Notes under the pieces: generated by a model
The model's database searches: none
What the model was told of the DNA's origin: nothing
What the model saw: only the letters and a program-made list of their open reading frames with translations
In this document: piece by piece, positions 7,007 through 50,073 of the stretch
Numbering within the stretch: position 1 is the first letter of the stretch
How the letters are laid out: each line of letters starts with the position of its first letter
Position numbers and translations under genes: made by a program
Origin: an uncultured Pseudomonadota bacterium
GTDB taxonomy: Bacteria; Pseudomonadota; Alphaproteobacteria; RF32; CAG-239
Assembly (NCBI GenBank): GCA_949298065.1
Contig: CASFUZ010000001.1
Location: 101,473-165,472 of the forward strand
Direction: 5' to 3'
Length of the DNA: 64,000 nt

Positions 7007-8596
7007 TTAGACCGAAGCCTCAATCAGCGCTTTCGTATATTCTTCATGTGGATGCTCAAAAATCTGTTCTTTTGAGCCCATTTCCACAAATTTGCCATCT
7101 TTCATAACAGCAATTCTGTCAGACATAGCCCTAACAGCCTTCATATCATGCGATATAAAAATATAGCTCAAGCCTTTATCTTTCTGAATTTTTTGCAATA
7201 AATCAATAATTTGTGCCTGAATTGTAACATCTAAGGCCGAAGTTGGCTCATCTAACACCAAAATTTTTGGCTCCAAAATCAAAGCTCGCGCTATTGCAAT
7301 TCTTTGCCTTTGTCCTCCGGAAAACTCATGCGGATATTTATCAAGTACATCTTCACCAAGACCAACTTCCGCCAATGCTTTTGCAGCTAAATTTCTTTTT
7401 TCTTTTGCAGATAACTCTGGCCGATGCACTTCCAAACCTTCAGCCACAATCTGCGACACATTCATCCTCGGATTAAGTGAATTATATGGATCTTGGAAAA
7501 CAATCTGCACACTTCTTCTAAAACTTTTACTTTCTTTTCTAATTTGTTGTTTTTCTTTATTTTTTACAATAAAATTACCTTTGGCTTTAATCAAATCTAC
7601 AATCGCCATACCAAGCGTTGTTTTACCCGAACCGGACTCTCCGACAATGCCTAAAGTCTCACCTTCTCGCAAATCAAAACTGATATCATCTACAGCCTTA
7701 ACCTCGCTAATCACCCTTCCCCAAAAATTCTTCTTTAGCGGAAAATAAACTTTCGCGTCTTGAACAGAGAGCACAATATTACTTTTAATATTATCATTGT
7801 ATTTCAATGAAGAATGAGCATTAATTAAAGTTTTAGTGTAAGAATCTTTTGGGCTTTCAAAAATACTTTCCGTATTACCCTGCTCCATGATTTTACCATC
7901 TTTCATAACGACAATACGATCCGCAATTTTACGCACCAAACGCAAATCATGGCTGATAAAGATAATACTCATTCCAAGCTTTTTACGCAAATCCATCAAT
8001 AAATCAATAATTTGCGCCTGAATTGTAACATCTAAAGCTGTTGTTGGCTCATCTGCAATCAAGATTTTTGGCTTATTTGCAATCGCCATGGCAATCATCA
8101 CACGTTGCCTTTGCCCACCCGAGAGCTCAAACGGATAGGCTTTCATCCGCTCTTTAGCATTCTTAATGCCCGTTAGTTTCAGTAAATTTAAAACTTCTTT
8201 TTTTATTTGTTTTTCAGACAGTTGACTATGTAACCTTAAAGTTTCGCCAATTTGTTTTTCTATTCTGTGCAACGGGTTTAATGAGGACATTGGTTCCTGA
8301 AAAATAAAAGCAATATCAGCTCCGCGCACAGCTTGCAAATCCTTTTCATCAGCTCGGATAAGTTCTTTTCCGCCAAACTTAATAGAGCTTTGGGCTGAAT
8401 GATAAGATTTCGGATAAGGCAGCAACCCCAAAACTGACAAGGCCGTAACCGATTTTCCTGAACCGGATTCTCCCACAATCCCCAAAACCTCGCCTTCATT
8501 GAGCTTAAAGGAAATATCATCAACCGCAAGCTTGTCCGGCCTACCGTTTTCTCCCTTAAATCCGACACTTAAATGTTGCACATCTAACAAAGACAT
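7007..8596 (-). CDS. yejF: Peptide ABC transporter ATP-binding protein, duplicated ATPase (YejF-like)
   Basis: Two Walker A (GESGSGKS/T), two SGGQRQR signatures and two DEPT motifs; follows YejE-like permease. Confidence 0.88.
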   Translation of the reverse strand: MSLLDVQHLSVGFKGENGRPDKLAVDDISFKLNEGEVLGIVGESGSGKSVTALSVLGLLPYPKSYHSAQSSIKFGGKELIRADEKDLQAVRGADIAFIFQEPMSSLNPLHRIEKQIGETLRLHSQLSEKQIKKEVLNLLKLTGIKNAKERMKAYPFELSGGQRQRVMIAMAIANKPKILIADEPTTALDVTIQAQIIDLLMDLRKKLGMSIIFISHDLRLVRKIADRIVVMKDGKIMEQGNTESIFESPKDSYTKTLINAHSSLKYNDNIKSNIVLSVQDAKVYFPLKKNFWGRVISEVKAVDDISFDLREGETLGIVGESGSGKTTLGMAIVDLIKAKGNFIVKNKEKQQIRKESKSFRRSVQIVFQDPYNSLNPRMNVSQIVAEGLEVHRPELSAKEKRNLAAKALAEVGLGEDVLDKYPHEFSGGQRQRIAIARALILEPKILVLDEPTSALDVTIQAQIIDLLQKIQKDKGLSYIFISHDMKAVRAMSDRIAVMKDGKFVEMGSKEQIFEHPHEEYTKALIEASV

Positions 8597-9669
8597 CAGC
8601 TATTCTTCCTTGCATCAAAAGCATCACGCACACCCTCGCCTATAAAAATAAGCAAAGTCAACAAGCTAGAGAGCACAACAAAGATGGTGATTCCAATCCA
8701 AGGCGCTTGCAGATTATCTTTACCTTGCCGCACCAAATCTCCCAAACTCGGATAATCCTGCGATAAGCCCAAACCCAAAAAATCAAGCGCGGTCAAAGCC
8801 ACAATAGCTTCCGACAAAACAAAAGGCACAAAAGTAACCGTTGCCACCACGGCGTTTGGCAAAATATGCCGAAAAATAATCCGTCCGTTGCCAACACCCA
8901 AGGCTTTTGCCGCTTTAACATATTCCAAGTTTCTGGCACGCAAAAACTCTGCGCGCACCATTCCGGTCAAACTCGTCCAAGAAAACAACATCAAAATAAT
9001 GAGCAAACTCCAAAATGTCGGTACAAAGATACTGGCAACGATAATCAGAATAAACAATTGCGGCAAAGATTCCCAAATTTCCATAAATCTTTGCATAAAG
9101 ATATCAATTTTTCCGCCCCAATACCCCTGAATAGCGCCGGCCGCAATACCGATAACCGAAGAAACCGCCGTCAACAAAAAAGCAAATACTACTGAAAGCC
9201 TGATACCATATAAGATTCTGGCCAAGATATCGCGTCCTTCATCATCAGTTCCGAGCCAATGTCTGCTACTCGGTGCCGCCGGTGTCGGAGAAAGTAAATC
9301 GTAATCTACTGTATTAAAAGAGAACGGAATAAGCGGCATAAGCATCCACCCTTCTCGCTCAACATTTTGCTTAATATACGCATCACGATAATCTGCCGGT
9401 GTCGGAAAATCTCCGCCAAATTCTTGTTCTGTATACTCAAACAAAATCGGAAAATAAAATTTTCCCTTATATTTCATAATCAGAGGTTTATCATTAGCAA
9501 TAACTTCTGAGAACAAAGACAAAGCAAACACAGCACCAAATATCACTAAAGAAACAAAAGCGCGCTTATTTTTGGCAAAAGCACATAATCGCCGTTGTGT
9601 TAGCGGAGAAAAACCTTGCCAAATATGCTCTTTAAGCCTTTCTAACAAAAGTTTATTCCTTTTGCTCAT
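8596..9669 (-). CDS. yejE: Peptide ABC transporter permease (YejE-like)
   Basis: IANDKPL, HWLGTDDEGRDILAR, RAEFLRAR and LDFLGLG motifs. Confidence 0.88.
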   Translation of the reverse strand: MSKRNKLLLERLKEHIWQGFSPLTQRRLCAFAKNKRAFVSLVIFGAVFALSLFSEVIANDKPLIMKYKGKFYFPILFEYTEQEFGGDFPTPADYRDAYIKQNVEREGWMLMPLIPFSFNTVDYDLLSPTPAAPSSRHWLGTDDEGRDILARILYGIRLSVVFAFLLTAVSSVIGIAAGAIQGYWGGKIDIFMQRFMEIWESLPQLFILIIVASIFVPTFWSLLIILMLFSWTSLTGMVRAEFLRARNLEYVKAAKALGVGNGRIIFRHILPNAVVATVTFVPFVLSEAIVALTALDFLGLGLSQDYPSLGDLVRQGKDNLQAPWIGITIFVVLSSLLTLLIFIGEGVRDAFDARKNS

Positions 9670-41414: not shown

Positions 41415-42242
41415 TTATCTATCAATCTTTTCCAAAAGCACCAGCATCCTTTGTTGAAGAAGGAAAGCTTCTTCTTTAGCGGCTTCCGCATAGTATCTGC
41501 CAGTATCAGCATAAATGATACCTCGGGAAGAATTAACAATCAACCCGCAGTTGTCGTTCATACCATATTCAGCAACTTTTTCCAAACTACCGCCCTGAGC
41601 ACCGACACCGGGAACAAGCAAGAAGTGGTTAGGAACAATTTTGCGAATATCTGCCAACATTTCTGCCTGAGTTGCACCGACAACATACATCATCTTGTTC
41701 TCATCGGCCCATTGTTGAGAAGTTTTCAAAACCTTCTCAAACAACATTTCACCATTGGCATCTTCCATCAACTCAAAGTCTTCAGCGCCTTTGTTTGAGG
41801 TCAAAGCCAACAGAATAACCCATTTTCCGTTATATTTCAGGAAAGGTTCAACACTATCCATCCCCATATAAGGTGCAACGGTAACCGCATCTGCTTTGAG
41901 TGTGGAGAACATAGCTTTGGCATAACGCTCACTTGTGTTTCCGATATCACCGCGCTTGGCATCTGCAATAACCAGAATCTCCGGATAATTTTGATGAATA
42001 TAATCCACCGTCTTTTTCAAGCTCATCAAGCCGTAAGCAAAACTTTCTTCATAAAATGCCAGATTCGGCTTGAACGCCACCGCAAATTCGGCCGTTGCAT
42101 CAATAATTCCCTTATTAAACGCAAAGATAGGATCTTCCTCACCCATTAAGAACTGAGGAATTTTTTGAATATCCGTATCCAGTCCCACACACAAAAAAGA
42201 TTTTTTAGCAAAAATCTGATTCACTAAATCTAAATAATTCAT
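41415..42242 (-). CDS. pyrF: Orotidine-5'-phosphate decarboxylase (subfamily 2)
   Basis: [34 protein letters not shown] and NSSRGI. Confidence 0.96.
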
Positions 42243-42384
42243 AAAACAAACGTTTTAAGGATTAAACATAAAAAATCTATAATCACAAAATACAGGGACA
42301 CTTATAACGCTAGTTTACAGATATTTCAAGATTTTTGTACAAATATATTATATTCCTCGGATCAAATAACATTGATTTAAAAAC

Positions 42385-42414
42385 AGAAAAACGACCCTAA
42401 AAGGTCGTTTTTCT
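42385..42414 (-). terminator. Original tRNA-Ser(TGA) terminator, displaced by the integrated element
   Basis: AGAAAAACGACC-CTAAAA-GGTCGTTTTTCT immediately outside the duplicated tRNA 3' end. Confidence 0.8.
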
Positions 42415-42416
42415 TT

Positions 42417-42437
42417 AATTGGCGGAGAGGCAGAGAT
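42417..42437. repeat. att site, distal copy (duplicated tRNA 3' end)
   Basis: AATTGGCGGAGAGGCAGAGAT identical to 49981-50001. Confidence 0.95.
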
Positions 42438-42619
42438 AATTTGCCAACGCCATTATAACACATTGTAAAACCCAAATATTTTTATTTTTCATTTTTTTAA
42501 ATATGCTATTTTGTAGCACGATTCTGTAATACCCTAGAGTCTAAAAAAATTCAATATAAAATTTCCTAATTACAAAATTTAATGAAAAACAAATAAATAA
42601 AATTAGATGAATTTTATTT

Positions 42620-42649
42620 TTGCGTTGGTCTCAACGTATATGATATTAT
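42620..42649 (+). promoter_or_regulatory. Putative sigma70 promoter for the structured non-coding region
   Basis: TTGCGT-N18-TATTAT with extended -10 TGn; palindrome CGTTG-GTCT-CAACG overlaps the -35/spacer. Confidence 0.5.
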
Positions 42650-42655
42650 TCAAAT

Positions 42656-42965
42656 ATATACCAATTACAAAAGTTATATTTTGTATCACGAAAACGGGGA
42701 AACAGGCCTTTTGACAGGCACCCTCACGCAGGGAACAAACTGAAAACCTATGACGACTAATCCATTGGTATTAGCACCGCAAAATAACCCCTCCGAAGGC
42801 GGCTGGCGGAATATAAATAGGGCACGGCTGATGATGTCAGTTAGAAGTCGGGGCAATATCTGTGCTCATTGATAACCCCAGCATTTAAAATTTGGTTCTT
42901 GTTCGGATTTTAAATGTGCCAACCGGAAAAGCAGGTGGAAGGTTCGCATTGGCGGTGTGCGGATT
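42656..42965 (+). ncRNA. Candidate large structured non-coding RNA of unknown class
   Basis: No ORF of 60 aa or more; ~47% GC by hand count (42721-42960) in an AT-rich element; at least 8 stems, with G-U pairs favouring the + strand. Confidence 0.55.
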
Positions 42966-43205
42966 TTAAGGAAACATACTTAATATAACCAAAACAAGAA
43001 AGCAAACTCAACGGATATGCTATACTCTTTTTTACCCTCTGTTTATGGGTAAAAAGAGCAAATCTAACGGATATACTATGAAAAATAAATTATCAAAAAA
43101 ATAAATTAAGAAAAAAAATTAAATGAGCAATCAAAGATTGCGAAATTTTGCCTGAACGAGCAAAGCGAGTTTAGGCATTAAAATAATTATAAAAAAGGAG
43201 AATAA

Positions 43206-43676
43206 ATGAATTTAGAGAAAACCGCCATAAATGACCGCATAGAAGCCATAATGAAGGATAATGAGTCAATCAACAGCAAATTAAAATACACCTCACCAGC
43301 GAACGAAAAAAAGGCATTACAAGATAAAAAAGCCAAAAACAATAACGAATTAAGAAAAGAAAGAACAAAACGCTATAATTTAGAACAAGAAGATGCCGAA
43401 TTTATTAGAGAATGCTGTCAATATCTTCAAAAATTAGGGATAGTAAAAAGCCAAAGGCAATTCAGCCAGCAATTTTTGAGTAAAAGCCAAGATTATTTGG
43501 GTATGTTGATTTGCGAAAGAAGACAACCACCAATTAACATATTGCACCGCCTTGTCCAAAATCTGATTCAAATTCAGCCAATTTATGAAGACAAATACAC
43601 CATCAACAATTATTTAGATATTCTCATTAACCGAGGTAATCAAATAATCACAAAAAAATTGCTTAAATATCTATAA
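43206..43676 (+). CDS. Hypothetical protein: N-terminal coiled coil plus DUF6626-like domain
   Basis: AAGGAG RBS; LGIVKSQRQFSQQFLSKSQDYLGMLICERRQP resembles DUF6626 proteins (recalled, not searched). Confidence 0.6.
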   Translation: MNLEKTAINDRIEAIMKDNESINSKLKYTSPANEKKALQDKKAKNNNELRKERTKRYNLEQEDAEFIRECCQYLQKLGIVKSQRQFSQQFLSKSQDYLGMLICERRQPPINILHRLVQNLIQIQPIYEDKYTINNYLDILINRGNQIITKKLLKYL

Positions 43677-43745: not shown

Positions 43746-43931
43746 ATGGAAATAATCAGAGCATATCAGCAACTAATGACATACAATAAAAAATATTCAT
43801 ACATCCAGAGCGATGGTAAAATTGTGTTTAATAATAATTGGGCTTGGATTGTAGTATTCCAAGCCCAAAATAAAAGAAATTATGCTATTGTAAAATATGA
43901 TAGCGGAAAATATACTGTAATTGAAGTTTAA
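43746..43931 (+). CDS. Small hypothetical protein
   Basis: 61 aa, AAGGA RBS, abuts the convergent ORF. Confidence 0.55.
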   Translation: MEIIRAYQQLMTYNKKYSYIQSDGKIVFNNNWAWIVVFQAQNKRNYAIVKYDSGKYTVIEV

Positions 43932-44303
43932 TTATTTCCAATTTGGAATGCAATGTGAATTTGCAAATCTTTCTGTCAAAATACTATTAACACGTGATAT
44001 AATATCCAATCTAATTGCAATCAATTCAGCATTTGCTCTTCCATTAAAATTTAAAGCATCTATTTCTCTTTGAGTAAGATTTAAGTTTTGCCGAATATGT
44101 GATTTTACATCTTTTTTTAAACAATCATAATATGGCATATTTGATAATTTTGAAAGTTCATAATCAACAACATTATCTATTAAAAGGTGTGCAGAACTAT
44201 TATTTTGTGAAAAACATAATAGAACAATAACACTCCCTATAATCGGCAATATATATTTAAGGATATTATTAGAATAACCTGATTTTCTTGTAGTAGGTAG
44301 CAT
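43932..44303 (-). CDS. Hypothetical membrane-anchored or exported protein
   Basis: ATG 44303 overlaps the upstream TAA (TAATG); hydrophobic segment ILPIIGSVIVLLCF. Confidence 0.65.
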   Translation of the reverse strand: MLPTTRKSGYSNNILKYILPIIGSVIVLLCFSQNNSSAHLLIDNVVDYELSKLSNMPYYDCLKKDVKSHIRQNLNLTQREIDALNFNGRANAELIAIRLDIISRVNSILTERFANSHCIPNWK

Positions 44304-45079
44304 TATATGAAAAACCAAAGATTGACACCTAAAAGCCCTAATAAGGTTAGTAAAGCAAAGAACCCACCAAAGCAAATTCCAAATAGCAACTCTATAATTC
44401 CAACTTCTTTATCTTTACATATTGATAATAATAACTTTGCGACAAACGCAAAGAGAGATGCTGGAACAAAACAACCAAATAAGTATCCAGGAACAACTAT
44501 AAGTCCACGAACAATAAGAATTACTGCTAAAATTGAAAGAACAATCATTACCCATTCTGAAACACTAAACTCATCAGAAGATTCTTCAATTTTATTTTTA
44601 TGATTTATTAATAACTTAATCCTTTTTTCTATTTCATTTATTTTATATATTAAATAAATTCCTATTTCTCCCTCTGATAAAACTTTAATATTTTCCCAAT
44701 CAATTAGATTTATAGTCGGAACAATGTTTTTATTGATAGAACATTCTGTTGGAATAATTTCAGGAGGTCTTTTATTATTACGATTAATTGGGGCTATACC
44801 ATTATACATAAAATTACCATTCATTATTTTATTTTCAATAAATGATGTTTTATTCCAATCAATTTCTATGTCAGTATTAGATTTATTTTCAATCTTAATG
44901 TTGAAAAGAATATTGTTTTTAACAGTGAAAACAATGTCAATGTTTTCATCAGAATATTTTGCTATCTGAGAATCTATATCATTTAAATATTCTTCTCGTT
45001 TTTGATTAAATTCTTCTTCTGTAATAACTCCTTTTTCTTTTAGTTCGTTAAGTTTTTCTAATTCTTCTGCTGTAATCAT
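44303..45079 (-). CDS. SHOCT-domain protein with three C-terminal TM helices
   Basis: N-terminal ELEKLNELKEKGVITEEEFNQKREEYL (SHOCT), hydrophobic C-terminus. Confidence 0.8.
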   Translation of the reverse strand: MITAEELEKLNELKEKGVITEEEFNQKREEYLNDIDSQIAKYSDENIDIVFTVKNNILFNIKIENKSNTDIEIDWNKTSFIENKIMNGNFMYNGIAPINRNNKRPPEIIPTECSINKNIVPTINLIDWENIKVLSEGEIGIYLIYKINEIEKRIKLLINHKNKIEESSDEFSVSEWVMIVLSILAVILIVRGLIVVPGYLFGCFVPASLFAFVAKLLLSICKDKEVGIIELLFGICFGGFFALLTLLGLLGVNLWFFI

Positions 45080-45094
45080 TTTTTACACCTCAAA

Positions 45095-45538
45095 CTACAA
45101 ATTCTTTTCAATATAATCAAATATCTTATTTGTAATTTTTTTCTTTTCTCCCCAATCAAAAACTTGAAAAGCAATACATTTACCAAATATAGAAACAGAT
45201 ATAGATTGTTTTGATTTTAATATCTGAATTAGCATTGTTTGACCATAAGATAGCCATGTTTGAGGGGTATCAAACATAATGATACCTTTATTTTTATTTG
45301 AATTAGAAATTGTATAATTCAATTCTTTTATTACATTTTGAGCAGAATTAAATATTTTATCATAGTCGGCATTAAACAATCTCTCTCCTTGTTTAGGAAG
45401 TTGAGGTATATCTACAATATCAGATTCAATGTCTGATTCAAAACCTAAAATTTGCTTCTTTTTTTCATTAAACTGTTCTTCTGTAATAATACCCTTTTCT
45501 TTTAGTTCAAAAAGTTTTTCAAGTTCCTTTGTATCCAT
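45095..45538 (-). CDS. SHOCT-domain protein
   Basis: N-terminal ELEKLFELKEKGIITEEQFNEKKKQIL; C-terminal domain with a DWG motif. Confidence 0.8.
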   Translation of the reverse strand: MDTKELEKLFELKEKGIITEEQFNEKKKQILGFESDIESDIVDIPQLPKQGERLFNADYDKIFNSAQNVIKELNYTISNSNKNKGIIMFDTPQTWLSYGQTMLIQILKSKQSISVSIFGKCIAFQVFDWGEKKKITNKIFDYIEKNL

Positions 45539-46126: not shown

Positions 46127-46723
46127 ATGATTTACGCATATATTAGAATATCAACTGACTTACAACATCAAGAAAATCAAAAATTTGAAATAGAAAACTT
46201 TGCTAAAACAAATAATATCAATATTGATAAATGGATTATGGAAACAATATCATCAAAAAAGCCATTAGAAGAAAGAAAATTAGGAAAAATATTAAGAAAA
46301 TTAAAACAAGATGATATTTTAATAACTTCTGAAATTTCAAGATTAGGCAGAAATTTATTACAAATTATGTATATACTTCATCACTGTATGAATGTTGGTT
46401 GTCAGATATGGACGATTAAAGATAATTATAGATTGGGAACAGATATACAGTCGAAGGTATTGGCTTTTGCTTTTGGATTAAGTGCAGAAATAGAAAGAGA
46501 TTTAATATCACAAAGAACTAAACAATGTTTAGCACGATTAAAAGCTGATGGAAAACATATTGGAAGACCAATAGGAAGAAAAAATAAAATAACTAAATTA
46601 TCAGGAAAAGAAGATTTAATTGATAAATTACTATCACAAAACATCAAGAAAACTAAAATTGCTAAAATGCTAAATGTCGATTATTCAACATTTTATAAAT
46701 TCTTAAAACAAAAGGCGGTATAA
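46127..46723 (+). CDS. Serine recombinase, Mpi (master DNA invertase)-like family
   Basis: YIRIST catalytic Ser, SEISRLGR, WTIKDNYRLGTDIQSKVLAFAFGLSAEIERDLISQRTK typical of Bacteroides Mpi-type enzymes; C-terminal HTH. Confidence 0.85.
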   Translation: MIYAYIRISTDLQHQENQKFEIENFAKTNNINIDKWIMETISSKKPLEERKLGKILRKLKQDDILITSEISRLGRNLLQIMYILHHCMNVGCQIWTIKDNYRLGTDIQSKVLAFAFGLSAEIERDLISQRTKQCLARLKADGKHIGRPIGRKNKITKLSGKEDLIDKLLSQNIKKTKIAKMLNVDYSTFYKFLKQKAV

Positions 46724-46730
46724 ATCCGCC

Positions 46731-47279
46731 TTATTTTTCTATATAGCTATATACAGTTGGTCTTGTTATTTCAAATTTTCTCGCAATTTCAGCAACGGCA
46801 ACACCATTTTTATATAAATTATTTAATTCTTTTACTTGTTCGTCTGATAATTTATTTTTACCACCTTTATATTTTCCTTTCGCTTTTGCCAACGCCACAC
46901 CTTCTCTAACTCTATCATTGATTAAAGAACGCTCCAAAGAACTAACAGCAGCTAACATTGTCATCATCATTTCTTGATAAGGGTCTTTTTTATCAGGAGA
47001 GAAAGTTAAATTTTCTTTATGAAACTTAATTGTTGCTCCAATATTGTTTATTTCTTCAACAATATTTAACAAATCACGAGTATTTCTCGCCAATCTATCC
47101 ATAGAATGAACATTAACAACATCACCGGCACGCAAATTTGACAACATTGCTTCTAATTGAGGACGCTCTCTATTTTTACCAGATAATTTATCCTCATATT
47201 CTCTATCACAAGGAACATCAATTAACTGTCTTTCAGTAGATTGGATTAAAGTTGAAACTCTTTTATAGTTAAAAATCAT
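46731..47279 (-). CDS. Serine resolvase (Tn3/Tn21 TnpR-like)
   Basis: YKRVST, SGKNRERPQL, VHSMDRLARN, LERSLI, C-terminal HTH (IARKFEITRPTVY). Confidence 0.92.
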   Translation of the reverse strand: MIFNYKRVSTLIQSTERQLIDVPCDREYEDKLSGKNRERPQLEAMLSNLRAGDVVNVHSMDRLARNTRDLLNIVEEINNIGATIKFHKENLTFSPDKKDPYQEMMMTMLAAVSSLERSLINDRVREGVALAKAKGKYKGGKNKLSDEQVKELNNLYKNGVAVAEIARKFEITRPTVYSYIEK

Positions 47280-48058: not shown

Positions 48059-49897
48059 TTAACTCTCCTTTTTCTTTGTCTTCTTTTTTGATAATTCATA
48101 ATCACCAGTTGAAAAATCTTTTTGAGATGGGTCATATGCAAGTTTGTGTAATATTTGTTTTAAACATGGATAATCTATTTTCTTTAACTCGCGATTAAGC
48201 AATGAAATATTGATGTTTTTACCATAAATTGATTGCCCTATACCTTTATTAGCCCACCCACCAAGAGCATTTTGGACTTCTGTTGATATTTTTTTTGCAA
48301 TAGCATGTTCTTCAAAACAATATCTAAAACTATGAAATACAATTTTATTTGCTGTTATACCGAGTTTATCAAGATAACGAGCAAACCAATGACCGACAGC
48401 ACCTGAAAATTGATTTTTTTTGGTATATTCAATAGTGTAAAAAATCCACTCTTTTTTATTTGTTTTTAATTTTTTTACAAAATCAATGAAACCTAAAAAT
48501 ATAAGAGCCGGGTGTATAGGCACAATTCTTTTAGAATGCTTGTTTTTTAATGATTGTTTGGGATGTGTGTCACAAATATTAAAACACCATATGCCTTTTA
48601 CTTTGATAATATCTTCCACTCGTAATTGGCAAATCTCGTTAATCCGAGCACCTGAAAATAAGGCAATTAAAGGAACCCAGAACTTTACAAATTCATAACG
48701 GCTATATCTATTGGGATAGGTTTCTGGATTGAATATCTTTTTTAAATCTTTATCAGAAAATCCAATGCGTGCAGGATCTTTATTTAATAATGGCGTTGTA
48801 ATATTTTTCTTAAAATCATTCGGTATAATGCCTTCATCAACTGCAAATTTTAATAATTCTTGAAAAGATATTAAATGAGCTTTGATTGTTTTTAGAGAGA
48901 TACATTTTTCATTATCAATCGGAAGTAAAATACTATTCAACCTCTTGTTCGGATATAAAAATTGCCATCTTTTGGGCACTCTATGAATATCAATAGAAAT
49001 TCTTTTGCAATCTTCTGCCGTTATATCGTCAATACAATCTTTTTCAAGAAGGGCGAAAATAGTTTTTAAATGTGTTCTTTTAGAATCTACAGAACTTTGT
49101 TTTATTTTTTTACGTAAATTATGAACCGTTATCATTCGGTCAAATAAAGTAGTCCAAAGAGTTTTTATTTTTCGTTGTTTTTCTATTCTCTTATTAGCTA
49201 TGTCTTGGCAAGTGGTTGTTAATTTTCTGATTAGCGGATTTATATTAGCATACTTAACCGCAGTATCATCAGTATTATGAATATCATTTATCAATTTTTC
49301 ATTATAACTCTCTACCTGCTGAAACTTATTTACATATGATTTAAACCAATCAGCGGTTTCCAAATTACGATATGTAGATGGAGATGTTGGGATATTGGTT
49401 AATCCACGCATAATTTTTTCTAAAACATTTTTTAATGTAATATGCGTGTCAGGTTGTTGATAGAGCCATAATAGATAAGAGTTGAGGTATTTTCCTGCAC
49501 AAAATGTTATATCACCACTAGTGAAAACAGAAACCTCTCTAAAATCTGCTTTACCTTTTTCAATATCATTAAAATTATCTTCACAAAACTTTTGCACTTC
49601 TTCCAATCTATGAATTAAAAGAGCGTCAATATCAGCATCATCCATCGTAATGCCGAAAGGGTGTGTTCTCTTGCTAATTTTCAATGCAACAACCTTTAAA
49701 AAATCAATAAATTTATCCATTGCGAGGGATTCTTTGGGATATTGTTTTATCGCCGTATAATAATCCCTTGTGCCAAGAGAATAAATCAACTCTTTGCGAA
49801 GTGCAAGAGGTTGCAAAATTCTGGGGATAGCAACCCTAATATAGAATACATGAAGCCGACGAGTTAGACGGGGATATCTTGACCGATTCTGTAACAC
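48059..49897 (-). CDS. Tyrosine integrase with N-terminal DUF6538-type arm-binding domain
   Basis: FYIRVAIP...KELIYSLGTRD N-terminus; catalytic R (SGARINEI), K (SLKN), HxxR (FHSFR), W (LGGW), Y (SIYG); start codon uncertain. Confidence 0.93.
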   Translation of the reverse strand: MLQNRSRYPRLTRRLHVFYIRVAIPRILQPLALRKELIYSLGTRDYYTAIKQYPKESLAMDKFIDFLKVVALKISKRTHPFGITMDDADIDALLIHRLEEVQKFCEDNFNDIEKGKADFREVSVFTSGDITFCAGKYLNSYLLWLYQQPDTHITLKNVLEKIMRGLTNIPTSPSTYRNLETADWFKSYVNKFQQVESYNEKLINDIHNTDDTAVKYANINPLIRKLTTTCQDIANKRIEKQRKIKTLWTTLFDRMITVHNLRKKIKQSSVDSKRTHLKTIFALLEKDCIDDITAEDCKRISIDIHRVPKRWQFLYPNKRLNSILLPIDNEKCISLKTIKAHLISFQELLKFAVDEGIIPNDFKKNITTPLLNKDPARIGFSDKDLKKIFNPETYPNRYSRYEFVKFWVPLIALFSGARINEICQLRVEDIIKVKGIWCFNICDTHPKQSLKNKHSKRIVPIHPALIFLGFIDFVKKLKTNKKEWIFYTIEYTKKNQFSGAVGHWFARYLDKLGITANKIVFHSFRYCFEEHAIAKKISTEVQNALGGWANKGIGQSIYGKNINISLLNRELKKIDYPCLKQILHKLAYDPSQKDFSTGDYELSKKKTKKKES

Positions 49898-49975: not shown

Positions 49976-49983
49976 CAATGAAT

Positions 49984-50073
49984 TGGCGGAGAGGCAGAGA
50001 TTCGAACTCTGGGAGGGCTCGCACCCTCGACGGTTTTCAAGACCGCTGCATTAAACCACTCTGCCACCTCTCC
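49984..50073 (-). tRNA. tRNA-Ser(TGA)
   Basis: Reverse complement GGAGAGGTGGCAGAGTGG...GCGGTCT-TGA-AAACCGT...variable arm...AGTTCGAATCT...CTCTCCGCCA. Confidence 0.97.

What the first reader, a model, noticed from the sequence alone, without database searches (positions are those of the whole stretch)
42620..42965. Candidate undescribed large structured ncRNA inside a tRNA-integrated element
Seen: this stretch has no ORF and is ~47% GC (114/240 by hand for 42721-42960) in an otherwise very AT-rich element. It follows an extended -10 promoter (TGaTATTAT, 42641-42649). It is densely pairable on the + strand: TACAAAA/TTTTGTA; GCCT/AGGC; CCCT/AGGG; CCTAT(42747)/ATAGG(42817) enclosing CTAAT/ATTAG and CCGC/GCGG stems; GGCA(42821)/TGCC(42917) closing a junction of GGCTGA/TCAGTT, GGGG/CCCC with TATC/GATA, and a ~14-bp CATTTAAAATTTGG/TCGGATTTTAAATG stem; then TTCGCA/TGCGGA. 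Several mismatches are G-U on this strand, which points to RNA-level structure. CGACT(42754)/AGTCG(42846) could form a pseudoknot. Inference: a ~300-nt multi-junction RNA that I cannot assign to a class I know.
Basis: partly seen in the sequence, partly recalled or inferred. Interest (0 to 1): 0.85.

Follow-up and report, generated by a model that had tools for sequence, protein, structure and literature searches.

The report
New structured RNA on integrative islands
This is a real, previously undescribed, roughly 430-base folded RNA gene carried by small DNA islands that insert next to tRNA genes in uncultured gut Alphaproteobacteria, and it sits where related islands carry a replication-type protein gene.

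Summary
The finding holds and is larger than reported. Window 42658-43085 (+) is conserved at 75-100% identity in 47 other loci. These lie in 23 more genomes of the same bacterial family (of 281 searched) and in gut-type metagenome contigs. In most islands it is the only stretch that resembles the window's island. On 40 distinct sequences, 17 helices (98 pairs) are 97.2% paired. Changes on both sides occur at 43 pairs, which 0 of 500 shuffles reached. One helix is a 7-bp pseudoknot between a hairpin loop and a strand about 95 nt downstream. G-U pairs name the + strand. Single-sequence folding energy is no better than shuffles (z about 0). No Rfam family matches it. The element is a 7.6-kb island at tRNA-Ser. 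Relatives use three unrelated integrases and five tRNA targets. A DUF6626 gene follows the RNA in 32 of 48 loci. In 17 of 20 sampled DUF6626 loci without the RNA, a small HUH (Rep-like) gene sits in the same position. Function is inferred, not shown. My best guess is an island-borne RNA that works with DUF6626 in replication or maintenance of the excised island. Transcription was not demonstrated.

The parts
42417..42437 (.). Left attachment repeat of the island. It is a 21-nt copy of the 3' end of tRNA-Ser, and the other copy is at 49981-50001.
   Evidence: the repeat finder D19, 100% identical. tRNA-Ser(tga) at 49984-50073 on the - strand.
42641..42649 (+). Extended -10-like box, 7-9 nt upstream of the point where conservation begins. 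This is the presumed promoter of the RNA.
   Evidence: Read directly from the sequence. A/T-rich -10-like boxes stand at about the same place in homologs (columns 1-18 of A3). The consensus promoter scan did not call it. No transcription start was measured.
42658..43000 (+). Core of the structured RNA: helices P1 to P9, the junction helices and both strands of pseudoknot PK2.
   Evidence: Alignment A3 of 40 distinct sequences. 98 pairs are 97.2% paired and 43 have changes on both sides (0/500 shuffles). Slid controls give 38.7-44.5% paired and 3-9 such pairs.
42666..42685 (+). P1 hairpin (42666-72 with 42679-85), the most variable helix.
   Evidence: 6 of 7 pairs changed on both sides, 99.3% paired (helix 2).
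42661..42768 (+). Possible 5' pseudoknot PK1. The 5' CCAAU (42661-65) would pair with AUUGG (42764-68) in the loop of P3.
   Evidence: 5 pairs, invariant in all 40 sequences, so covariation neither supports nor contradicts it (helix 1).
42757..42774 (+). P3 hairpin (42757-61 with 42770-74).
   Evidence: 4 of 5 pairs changed on both sides, 100% paired (helix 6).
42881..42917 (+). P7, a long hairpin (42881-94 with 42904-17) whose 7-nt loop forms PK2.
   Evidence: 8 of 14 pairs changed on both sides, 96.6% paired (helix 12).
42896..43000 (+). Pseudoknot PK2. The P7 loop (42896-42902) pairs with 42994-43000.
   Evidence: Found by an all-against-all helix scan. 4 of 7 pairs changed on both sides, 99.3% paired (helix 13).
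42934..42990 (+). Three-way junction made of the closing helix (42934-36 with 42988-90), P8 (42941-48 with 42958-65) and P9 (42966-70 with 42979-83).
   Evidence: Pairs changed on both sides: 2 of 3, 4 of 8 and 4 of 5 (helices 14-16).
43001..43076 (+). Conserved tail. Two 21-23-nt direct repeats, R1 (43001-23) and R2 (43056-76), flank the A/U-rich hairpin P10 (43029-37 with 43047-55).
   Evidence: the repeat finder D13. The two repeats change together across homologs: six core variants are shared by both copies, and AAA to AGG also occurs in both. P10 has 6 of 9 pairs invariant and 1 changed on both sides. Whether this tail acts as RNA or as DNA is open.
43127..43141 (+). Small hairpin followed by a weak T-run. 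It may be a leaky terminator of the RNA.
   Evidence: The tool's scan called it only on the - strand. A similar hairpin with a T-rich tail lies 76-97 nt after R2 in 12 of the 39 distinct downstream sequences scanned. A different, stronger hairpin follows in L054.
43206..43676 (+). DUF6626 gene, the usual downstream neighbour of the RNA.
   Evidence: Pfam PF20331, E 2.5e-8. It lies downstream on the same strand in 32 of 48 RNA loci.
46127..47279 (.). Two small serine recombinase (resolvase) genes of the island: 46127-46723 on + and 46731-47279 on -.
   Evidence: Pfam Resolvase, E 8e-29 and 6e-33.
48059..49897 (-). Tyrosine integrase of the island, next to tRNA-Ser.
   Evidence: Pfam Phage_integrase plus DUF6538.

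Best explanation
Window 42658-43000 (+), with a conserved tail to about 43085, is the gene of a new structured RNA. It has about 12 hairpins or helices, multi-way junctions and at least one long-range pseudoknot. I put the odds that it is a real RNA-level structure at about 0.85. It is the most conserved cassette of a family of small integrative islands in uncultured gut Alphaproteobacteria.

Shown here:
- The fold is kept by compensatory changes.
- The cassette has sharp borders.
- It travels with three unrelated integrases and five tRNA targets.
- It is normally followed by a DUF6626 gene.
- It occupies the position that a small HUH (Rep-like) gene holds in sister islands, and the two have been exchanged repeatedly.

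Inferred mechanism (about 0.3): the RNA and DUF6626 form the island's replication or maintenance module. The RNA is transcribed from its own promoter toward two co-evolving iteron-like repeats that flank an A/T-rich hairpin. The pseudoknot ties the folded core to the strand just before these repeats. There the RNA could act as an origin-proximal (pre-primer or R-loop type) transcript, with DUF6626 reading the repeats. This would do by RNA what the HUH protein does by nicking.
For: Conservation:
- 24 of 282 family genomes (G000 included) match at 76-100% identity, in 10 of 23 genera, with one match per genome.
- 23 genome-contig loci and 24 of 29 metagenome loci were confirmed by nhmmer.
- In most islands only 42639/42691-43075/43196 resembles the window's island.

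Structure:
- The counts are those, with the pseudoknot supported at 4 of 7 pairs.
- Strand: 409 G-U against 49 A-C cells.

It is a gene of its own:
- L039/L040 have a - strand resolvase downstream.
- L041 is flanked by - strand genes.

Context:
- Integrases are tyrosine type or large serine type.
- tRNA targets are Leu, Gly, Thr, Lys and Ser.
- DUF6626 lies downstream in 32 of 48 loci and upstream in 2.

The slot:
- 17 of 20 sampled DUF6626 loci without the RNA have an HUH-motif gene directly upstream.
- The two HUH groups are homologous (hhalign 93.6%, E 2e-7).
- 4 of 103 relatives carry PF23343, a replication-associated family.
- No HUH gene was found in any of the 48 RNA loci.
- In the DUF6626 tree, RNA-linked proteins are interleaved with HUH-linked ones in several starred clades.
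- The island has no Rep or transfer gene by Pfam.
- R1 and R2 change in concert.
Against: - Transcription was not shown. Only contigs from RNA libraries could be laid, and they prove nothing.
- Folding energy equals that of shuffles.
- There is no sign that the island replicates. 0 of 17 whole short contigs have terminal repeats (one of them, L064, is not a confirmed homolog). There is no DnaA-box-like site within 42400-43300.
- No antisense RNA was found. The one promoter-like site on the - strand (43011-42982) is a weak consensus match.
- A fold this elaborate is more than a primer needs.
- The slot upstream of DUF6626 is not always a Rep-like gene. Ankyrin-repeat genes occur there too, so sharing the position may only mean a recombination hotspot.
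- The HUH assignment rests on motifs read by eye, one below-threshold Pfam hit (17.7 against a cut-off of 27.8 bits) and precomputed labels on 4 of 103 relatives.
- DUF6626 has no known function. My reading of it as helix-turn-helix-like got no support from Pfam or PDB sequence searches.
Confidence: 0.45

Rival explanations
1. A long cis-acting leader of the DUF6626 (or ankyrin-DUF6626) operon, riboswitch-like or an attenuator. The fold would sense a signal and set read-through or translation of the downstream regulator.
For: DUF6626 lies downstream on the same strand in 32 of 48 loci, starting 515-1325 nt after the RNA start. No strong terminator separates them in most sequences: 26 of 39 downstream regions scanned had none by my criteria. 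The U-rich 5' arm of P10 directly follows a small R1 hairpin, which could allow alternative folds (sequence).
Against: L039/L040 have DUF6626 upstream and a - strand resolvase downstream. L041, L057, L058 and L062 have 1.9 kb or more of downstream sequence without DUF6626. G029 keeps the RNA with a strong hairpin plus T-run after it and no DUF6626. At about 430 nt with 17 helices, it is far larger than known leaders. The same RNA precedes DUF6626 proteins only 28-32% identical to the window's.
Confidence: 0.2
2. A trans-acting RNA cargo unrelated to replication. It could be a scaffold or RNP partner, a ribozyme, or a defence or host-directed RNA that sits in a variable hotspot beside the integrase.
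For: It is free-standing in some loci. The slot also holds ankyrin genes. Several loops are invariant (P3, P8, P6), as expected for tertiary or intermolecular contacts. Large RNAs of unknown role are known on mobile elements (recalled: GOLLD, ROOL).
Against: Cargo usually varies between islands. Here the RNA is the constant part and the rest varies. It is tightly linked to DUF6626. No partner protein with an RNA-binding domain was seen.
Confidence: 0.2
3. A cis-acting DNA site used in single-stranded form, not an RNA. It could be an origin of transfer or a single-strand initiation site that lets a helper mobilise the island.
For: It is the most conserved stretch of an island that has no transfer genes. 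It is orientation-specific and close to one island end. G-T pairs are also tolerated in folded DNA (established knowledge). Sister islands encode HUH enzymes, which act on folded single strands. Near-identical copies in different genera show recent transfer.
Against: A 17-helix fold with a loop-to-strand pseudoknot kept by compensation is unlike the simple hairpins of known transfer or single-strand origins (recalled). Conservation starts a few bases after a -10-like box. 15 of 24 RNA-positive genomes have no HUH-like gene. No plasmid or phage record matches it.
Confidence: 0.12
4. A decayed protein-coding gene, or pairings that arise by chance.
For: Folding energy is no better than shuffles. 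An antisense ORF of 81-141 aa is open in 10 of 24 loci (cluster c0).
Against: No credible Pfam match for the ORFs: 3 of 4 have none and one has E 0.2. tblastn with the DUF6626 and HUH proteins finds nothing in the RNA regions (best E 0.11). Indels are not in threes. Compensatory changes occur at 43 of 98 pairs against 26.8 +/- 2.0 in shuffles.
Confidence: 0.02

Closest known systems
GOLLD and ROOL, large structured RNAs found on prophages and other mobile DNA (features recalled; Rfam models tested)
   Same: Several hundred nucleotides long, with many helices and pseudoknots. Carried by mobile elements, often beside tRNA genes. No protein-coding role and function unknown.
   Different: No match to their Rfam models or to any other. 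Smaller. Confined, as far as searched, to one family of Alphaproteobacteria. Not found in IMG/VR by two patterns. Tied to a DUF6626 gene.
ColE1-type RNA II, the replication pre-primer (features recalled)
   Same: A structured transcript of about 500 nt on a replicon without a Rep protein. It is read toward a defined site. It has a variable but compensated 5' hairpin that could set specificity.
   Different: No homology. The Rfam RNAI hits are weak (18 against a gathering score of 47 bits) and lie at 42372-42480, outside the RNA. No antisense partner, no circular replicon and no origin were shown. The host is an alphaproteobacterium and the element is integrated.
Origins of phage-inducible chromosomal islands, with iterons flanking an A/T-rich stretch and read by an island-specific initiator (recalled)
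   Same: Two direct repeats that co-vary between islands flank an A/T-rich hairpin (43001-43076). They lie near the integrase end of a small island at a tRNA gene.
   Different: No primase or replicase gene on the island. The repeats follow a large structured RNA. Binding by any protein is untested.
Guide RNAs of recombinases (bridge RNA of IS110; passages read in 10.64898/2026.10.21.760802) and omega RNA/HEARO
   Same: A structured RNA encoded beside a recombinase gene at the end of a mobile element.
   Different: The recombinases here are tyrosine or serine type, not IS110, IscB or TnpB. An identical RNA sequence sits at tRNA-Leu(cag) in L037 and at tRNA-Thr(cgt) in L052, so it does not specify the target.

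Membership tests
Any Rfam 15 family (including ROOL, GOLLD, OLE, HEARO, raiA, PAGEV, ARRPOF, RNAI) | Match to the family's covariance model at or above its gathering score | tested here: not met
   Whole window: only 3 tRNAs. At E up to 10 over 42300-43300, none of the 17 listed matches falls within 42547-43189. Seven homolog loci: only tRNAs.
ColE1-type pre-primer RNA II | Antisense regulator RNA (RNA I) overlapping the 5' part | tested here: inconclusive
   One promoter-like site on the - strand, at 43011-42982 in the 3' part, 9 of 12 consensus matches. Rfam RNAI hits lie only outside the RNA and far below gathering.
ColE1-type pre-primer RNA II | Replicon without a Rep protein that exists as a circle | tested here: inconclusive
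   No Rep on the island by Pfam. However, 0 of 17 whole short contigs show terminal repeats, and the copies whose flanks were read lie beside tRNA genes or host genes.
ColE1-type pre-primer RNA II | RNA-DNA hybrid and RNase H cut that start DNA synthesis at the 3' end | not testable with these tools
   Needs mapping of DNA starts and hybrids.
Recombinase guide RNA (bridge RNA type) | Adjacent IS110-type recombinase, and RNA loops that co-vary with target and donor DNA | tested here: not met
   Recombinases are Phage_integrase or Resolvase/Recombinase. The same RNA sequence occurs at two different tRNA targets. No complementary partner of the variable repeat core was found in the loci.
Retron or defence reverse-transcriptase ncRNA | Adjacent reverse transcriptase gene | tested here: not met
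   No RT domain among the 10 island proteins or among the neighbours tested in homologs.
Cis-regulatory leader or riboswitch | Always directly upstream, on the same strand, of the gene class it controls | tested here: inconclusive
   32 of 48 loci meet this. 2 have the gene upstream. 4 lack it despite 1.9 kb or more of flank. 10 flanks are too short.
Single-strand origin or origin of transfer (DNA) | Works only as folded single-stranded DNA, together with an HUH Rep or relaxase | not testable with these tools
   No HUH gene in any of the 48 RNA loci. 15 of 24 RNA-positive genomes have none. Function as DNA cannot be excluded by sequence.
tRNA or tmRNA | ARAGORN or Rfam detection | tested here: not met
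   ARAGORN finds 3 tRNAs, none in 42600-43100.

The most novel reading that the evidence does not exclude
The RNA is the functional replacement of an HUH (Rep-like) endonuclease. It would be an RNA initiator, either a catalytic RNA or a structured primer and origin-opening RNA. With DUF6626 it would start replication or mobilisation of an excised bacterial island without any initiator protein. The RNA and protein solutions would have been swapped repeatedly in evolution.
Probability: 0.15. Interest if true: 0.9.

Novelty: categorically new. Interest (0 to 1): 0.75.

Why it matters
Bacterial RNAs of this size and complexity are rare. Known examples have turned out to be ribozymes, guides or large assemblies. 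This one has a clean comparative signal, including a pseudoknot supported by compensatory changes. It has a defined genetic setting, as the constant cassette of islands whose integrases, targets and cargo all vary. It also has a natural control, since sister islands carry a Rep-like HUH gene in the same position. That makes its role directly testable by comparing the two island types. If the RNA stands in for a protein initiator, it would be a new way for an integrative element to replicate or move. It also marks a mobile-element family that has moved recently between genera of common but uncultured gut bacteria. Finally, it shows that a fold can be real although its single-sequence folding energy is unremarkable.

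Tried and rejected
Folding energy. z = 0.01 (+), 0.02 (-) and -0.19. This gives no support from thermodynamics, and I did not treat it as a refutation because covariation is strong.

Other collections. blastn of 42600-43000 against plasmids and phages found no match. Two pattern scans of viral contigs gave 0 hits and 2 hits. The 2 hits are chance matches: the one read, L117, looks like coding sequence, and neither has an R1 match.

RNA libraries. 22 runs were listed, and all RNA-labelled rows have small shares. Four were laid, as contigs only. In X6 a 199-nt contig lies on 42823-43010. In X12 an 835-nt contig covers 42658-42885 but runs on upstream of the presumed start. X2 and X1 are probably DNA. 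None of this shows transcription, ends or strand.

Wider homologs. Model R1 (the 5' 170 positions) found nothing in the 20 other DUF6626 loci searched with it. It found only already known copies in 151 genomes of the order (16 hits). It found only G000 among 151 genomes of the class. nhmmer --max on the other DUF6626 loci gave E > 1.

Guide-RNA idea. Rejected, because the same RNA sits at different tRNAs.

A partner strand for R1/R2. No consistent complement was found in the RNA or the flanks.

Other negative checks. No circular contigs. No DnaA boxes near the RNA. It is not a decayed gene.

DUF6626 and the HUH-like proteins. PDB sequence searches gave nothing significant. PHROGs gave only families of unknown function or weak hits. 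Pfam gave no helix-turn-helix family for DUF6626, so my helix-turn-helix reading is by eye only.

Literature. The term 'DUF6626' is in 0 papers. Searches for structured RNAs in microbiomes and for island-borne large RNAs listed nothing that matches. The search with the terms CAG-239/RF32 was a recalled guess at the host group and is not used. I read passages only (find mode) of PMC8040213, 10.64898/2026.10.21.760802 and 10.64898/2026.09.15.751765. PMC8040213 lists thousands of unnamed candidates in supplementary tables.
Full report
What is there.

The finding lies about 200 bp inside the left end of a 7.6-kb island. The island is bounded by a perfect 21-nt direct repeat, at 42417-42437 and 49981-50001. 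That repeat is the 3' end of tRNA-Ser(tga) at 49984-50073. The island encodes:
- a tyrosine integrase (48059-49897);
- two small serine resolvases;
- two SHOCT-domain proteins;
- several proteins without a family;
- a DUF6626 protein (43206-43676), directly after the finding.

It has no replication or transfer gene. Its G+C is 0.278 outside the finding.

Is it more than chance?

Single-sequence thermodynamics says no. The z-score is 0.01 on the + strand and 0.02 on the - strand for 42656-42970, and -0.19 for 42658-43085.

Comparative evidence overrides it.
- A DNA search of 282 genomes of the same family found the stretch in 24 (G000 included), in 10 of 23 genera. There was one match per genome, at 76-100% identity. 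Four copies in two other genera are 99-100% identical to the window's.
- A pattern taken from invariant columns found 23 loci in the species-representative genomes. Their record titles name Alphaproteobacteria in 17 cases, 'proteobacterium' in 2, Azospirillaceae in 1, and unrelated groups in 3 (one on a short contig).
- The same pattern found 29 loci in metagenomes, and nhmmer confirmed 24 of them.
- blastn of the whole island against these loci shows that in most of them only 42639/42691-43075/43196 is alike, with sharp borders.

The fold.

I aligned 40 distinct full-length sequences (A3). I searched all column pairs for helices and counted a hand-built structure of 17 helices and 98 pairs.
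- 97.2% of cells form standard pairs, against 89.8% in shuffles.
- 43 pairs show changes on both sides, against 26.8 +/- 2.0 in shuffles. 0 of 500 shuffles reached this.
- Sliding the partners by 1-3 columns drops pairing to 38.7-44.5% and the count to 3-9 pairs.

The sequences are related, so the shuffle figures are not probabilities. However, many pairs show three or more pair types, and the slid controls keep relatedness.

The best supported helices are P1 (6 of 7 pairs changed on both sides), P3 (4 of 5), the long P7 (8 of 14), P8 (4 of 8), P9 (4 of 5) and the inner P6 helix (3 of 4).

The 7-nt loop of P7 (42896-42902) pairs with 42994-43000. 4 of its 7 pairs are changed on both sides, and it is 99.3% paired.

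A second possible pseudoknot, the 5' end with the P3 loop, is invariant and therefore untested.

G-U cells outnumber A-C cells 409 to 49. The + strand is therefore 97.2% canonical and the - strand 87.9%.

The other 2 are not supported: GGCA/TGCC and the CGACT/AGTCG pseudoknot.

It is not coding.
- Indels of one or two bases occur throughout.
- The open frames have no credible Pfam match.
- tblastn with the neighbouring protein families finds nothing in the region.

It is not a known RNA.
- Rfam 15 gives only tRNAs in the window and in seven homolog loci.
- It gives nothing in the region even at E up to 10.
- A covariance model of the 5' 170 positions (R1) finds no further copies in 151 genomes of the order beyond those found by DNA search.
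- It finds none in 150 other families of the class.
- Plasmid, phage and viral collections hold no true match.

The tail.

After the pseudoknot strand come two 21-23-nt direct repeats, R1 (43001-23) and R2 (43056-76). They flank an A/U-rich hairpin. The two repeats change together from island to island. Six variants of a five-base core are shared by both copies of a sequence. A further AAA to AGG change also occurs in both copies.

No complementary partner exists in the RNA or nearby. The simplest reading is that both repeats are read by one island-specific factor, or that they are homogenised by conversion. Covariation here is too thin to say whether this part works as RNA or as DNA.

Context and what it suggests.

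The islands sit at the 3' ends of tRNA-Leu(cag), Gly(gcc), Thr, Lys(ctt) and Ser(tga) genes. They use at least three unrelated integrases: two tyrosine types and a large serine recombinase. An identical RNA sequence is found at tRNA-Leu in L037 and at tRNA-Thr in L052. This rules out a target-guide role.

The constant neighbour is DUF6626. The tally over the 48 loci is:
- downstream on the same strand in 32;
- upstream in 2;
- absent despite 1.9 kb or more of flank in 4;
- undecidable in 10, where the flank is too short.

The loci without a downstream gene, and L041, which is flanked by genes on the other strand, show that the RNA can stand alone.

DUF6626 itself is in 64 of 282 family genomes, more than have the RNA. 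I fetched 20 DUF6626 loci without the RNA. In 17 of them the gene directly upstream encodes a small protein of 129-224 aa with motifs that I read as the HUH endonuclease signature.
- The two size classes are homologous (hhalign 93.6%, E 2e-7).
- One member has a below-threshold Pfam hit to PF23343, a replication-associated family.
- 4 of 103 database relatives carry that label.
- One such island has a tyrosine integrase just upstream.
- None of the 48 RNA loci has such a gene.
- 15 of the 24 RNA-positive genomes have none anywhere. The RNA islands therefore do not rely on a resident copy.

In a tree of DUF6626 proteins, the RNA-linked ones fall into several separate, well supported groups next to HUH-linked ones. 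The protein is short and some branches are long. Even so, the RNA cassette and the HUH gene appear to have been exchanged as upstream partners of DUF6626 more than once.

Interpretation.

Shown: a conserved, strand-specific, pseudoknotted fold; a cassette with sharp borders that is the constant part of a mosaic island family; linkage to DUF6626; and occupation of the slot that a Rep-like HUH gene holds in sister islands.

Inferred: the RNA is transcribed from the -10-like box at 42641-42649, and it works with DUF6626 in replication or maintenance of the excised island. The two co-evolving repeats and the A/T-rich hairpin would act as an origin-like site. I give the RNA reading about 0.85 and this mechanism about 0.3.

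The main rivals are a very long leader of the DUF6626 operon, a trans-acting RNA cargo or ribozyme unrelated to replication, and a DNA site used in single-stranded form.

Against my preferred mechanism:
- there is no evidence of a circular or replicating form;
- there are no DnaA boxes;
- no antisense RNA was found;
- the slot also accepts ankyrin genes, so shared position may reflect a recombination hotspot only.

Comparison with known systems.

It works, at most, like a ColE1-type pre-primer or like the large RNAs of mobile elements (GOLLD, ROOL). It is a member of none of these (see the membership table). It is not a bridge, omega or retron RNA, because the defining neighbouring enzymes are absent.

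Limits.
- Transcription was not shown. The runs offered were contigs only.
- Supplementary tables of PMC8040213, which list thousands of unnamed candidate RNAs from human microbiomes, could not be read. An unnamed prior listing therefore cannot be excluded.
- No paper held the term DUF6626. The searches and the passages read showed nothing that matches.

Verdict.

This is a real and, as far as these searches reach, undescribed class of large structured RNA on integrative islands of gut Alphaproteobacteria. Its function is unknown, but a testable lead exists. Interest 0.75.

Noticed in passing
L087 (G000:C6:58200-60500); also L088-L093, L095-L104: The window's own genome has a second DUF6626 locus on another contig, with no RNA. 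There a 136-aa protein with HUH-like motifs sits directly upstream of DUF6626. Two homologous families of such small proteins (136 aa and 182-224 aa) are unannotated in Pfam, apart from a weak likeness to PF23343.
   Followed up: partly
window 43001-43023 and 43056-43076: Two direct repeats evolve in concert across islands: the same core variant is in both copies, with six variants seen. No complementary partner was found. A factor that reads both, or conversion between them, would explain it.
   Followed up: partly
G163, G156, G149 and G288 (loci L014-L017): Copies 99-100% identical to the window's RNA occur in genomes of two other genera. This points to recent horizontal transfer of the cassette or the island. 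L055 shares 89-96% identity over two separate island segments, so the islands are mosaics.
   Followed up: partly
L046:1352-2911 (-) with the tRNA at L046:1362-1444 (+): In the islands at tRNA-Leu(cag), the open frame of the large serine recombinase runs into the tRNA gene on the opposite strand.
   Followed up: no
window 43746-43931 (+): A 61-aa ORF without a family is conserved at 71-79% DNA identity in islands that otherwise share only the RNA (L042, L038, L081). It may be a small island gene, such as an excision factor.
   Followed up: no
window 44303-45079 and 45095-45538 (-): Two neighbouring genes start with SHOCT domains and share a 71-nt repeat at 82% identity in their 5' ends (repeat finder D1).
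   Followed up: no
L045, L047, L057: Three loci with the RNA come from bins whose titles name Clostridia, Eubacteriales or Muribaculaceae. L045 and L047 also carry the same island genes as the alphaproteobacterial loci, so mis-binning is likely.
   Followed up: no
L010 (G029:C94), RNA at 8366-8834 (-), and L005 (G019:C50): G029 keeps an intact RNA beside tRNA-Thr with a strong hairpin plus T-run after it, but has no integrase or DUF6626 nearby. This looks like a remnant or a minimal form. G019 keeps only the first 100-144 nt.
   Followed up: partly
window 42386-42414: A G+C-rich hairpin flanked by A- and T-runs lies between the pyrF-like gene (41415-42242, -) and the left attachment repeat. 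It looks like a two-way terminator. It is what attracted the weak Rfam hits (RNAI, Phe_leader, rli52).
   Followed up: no
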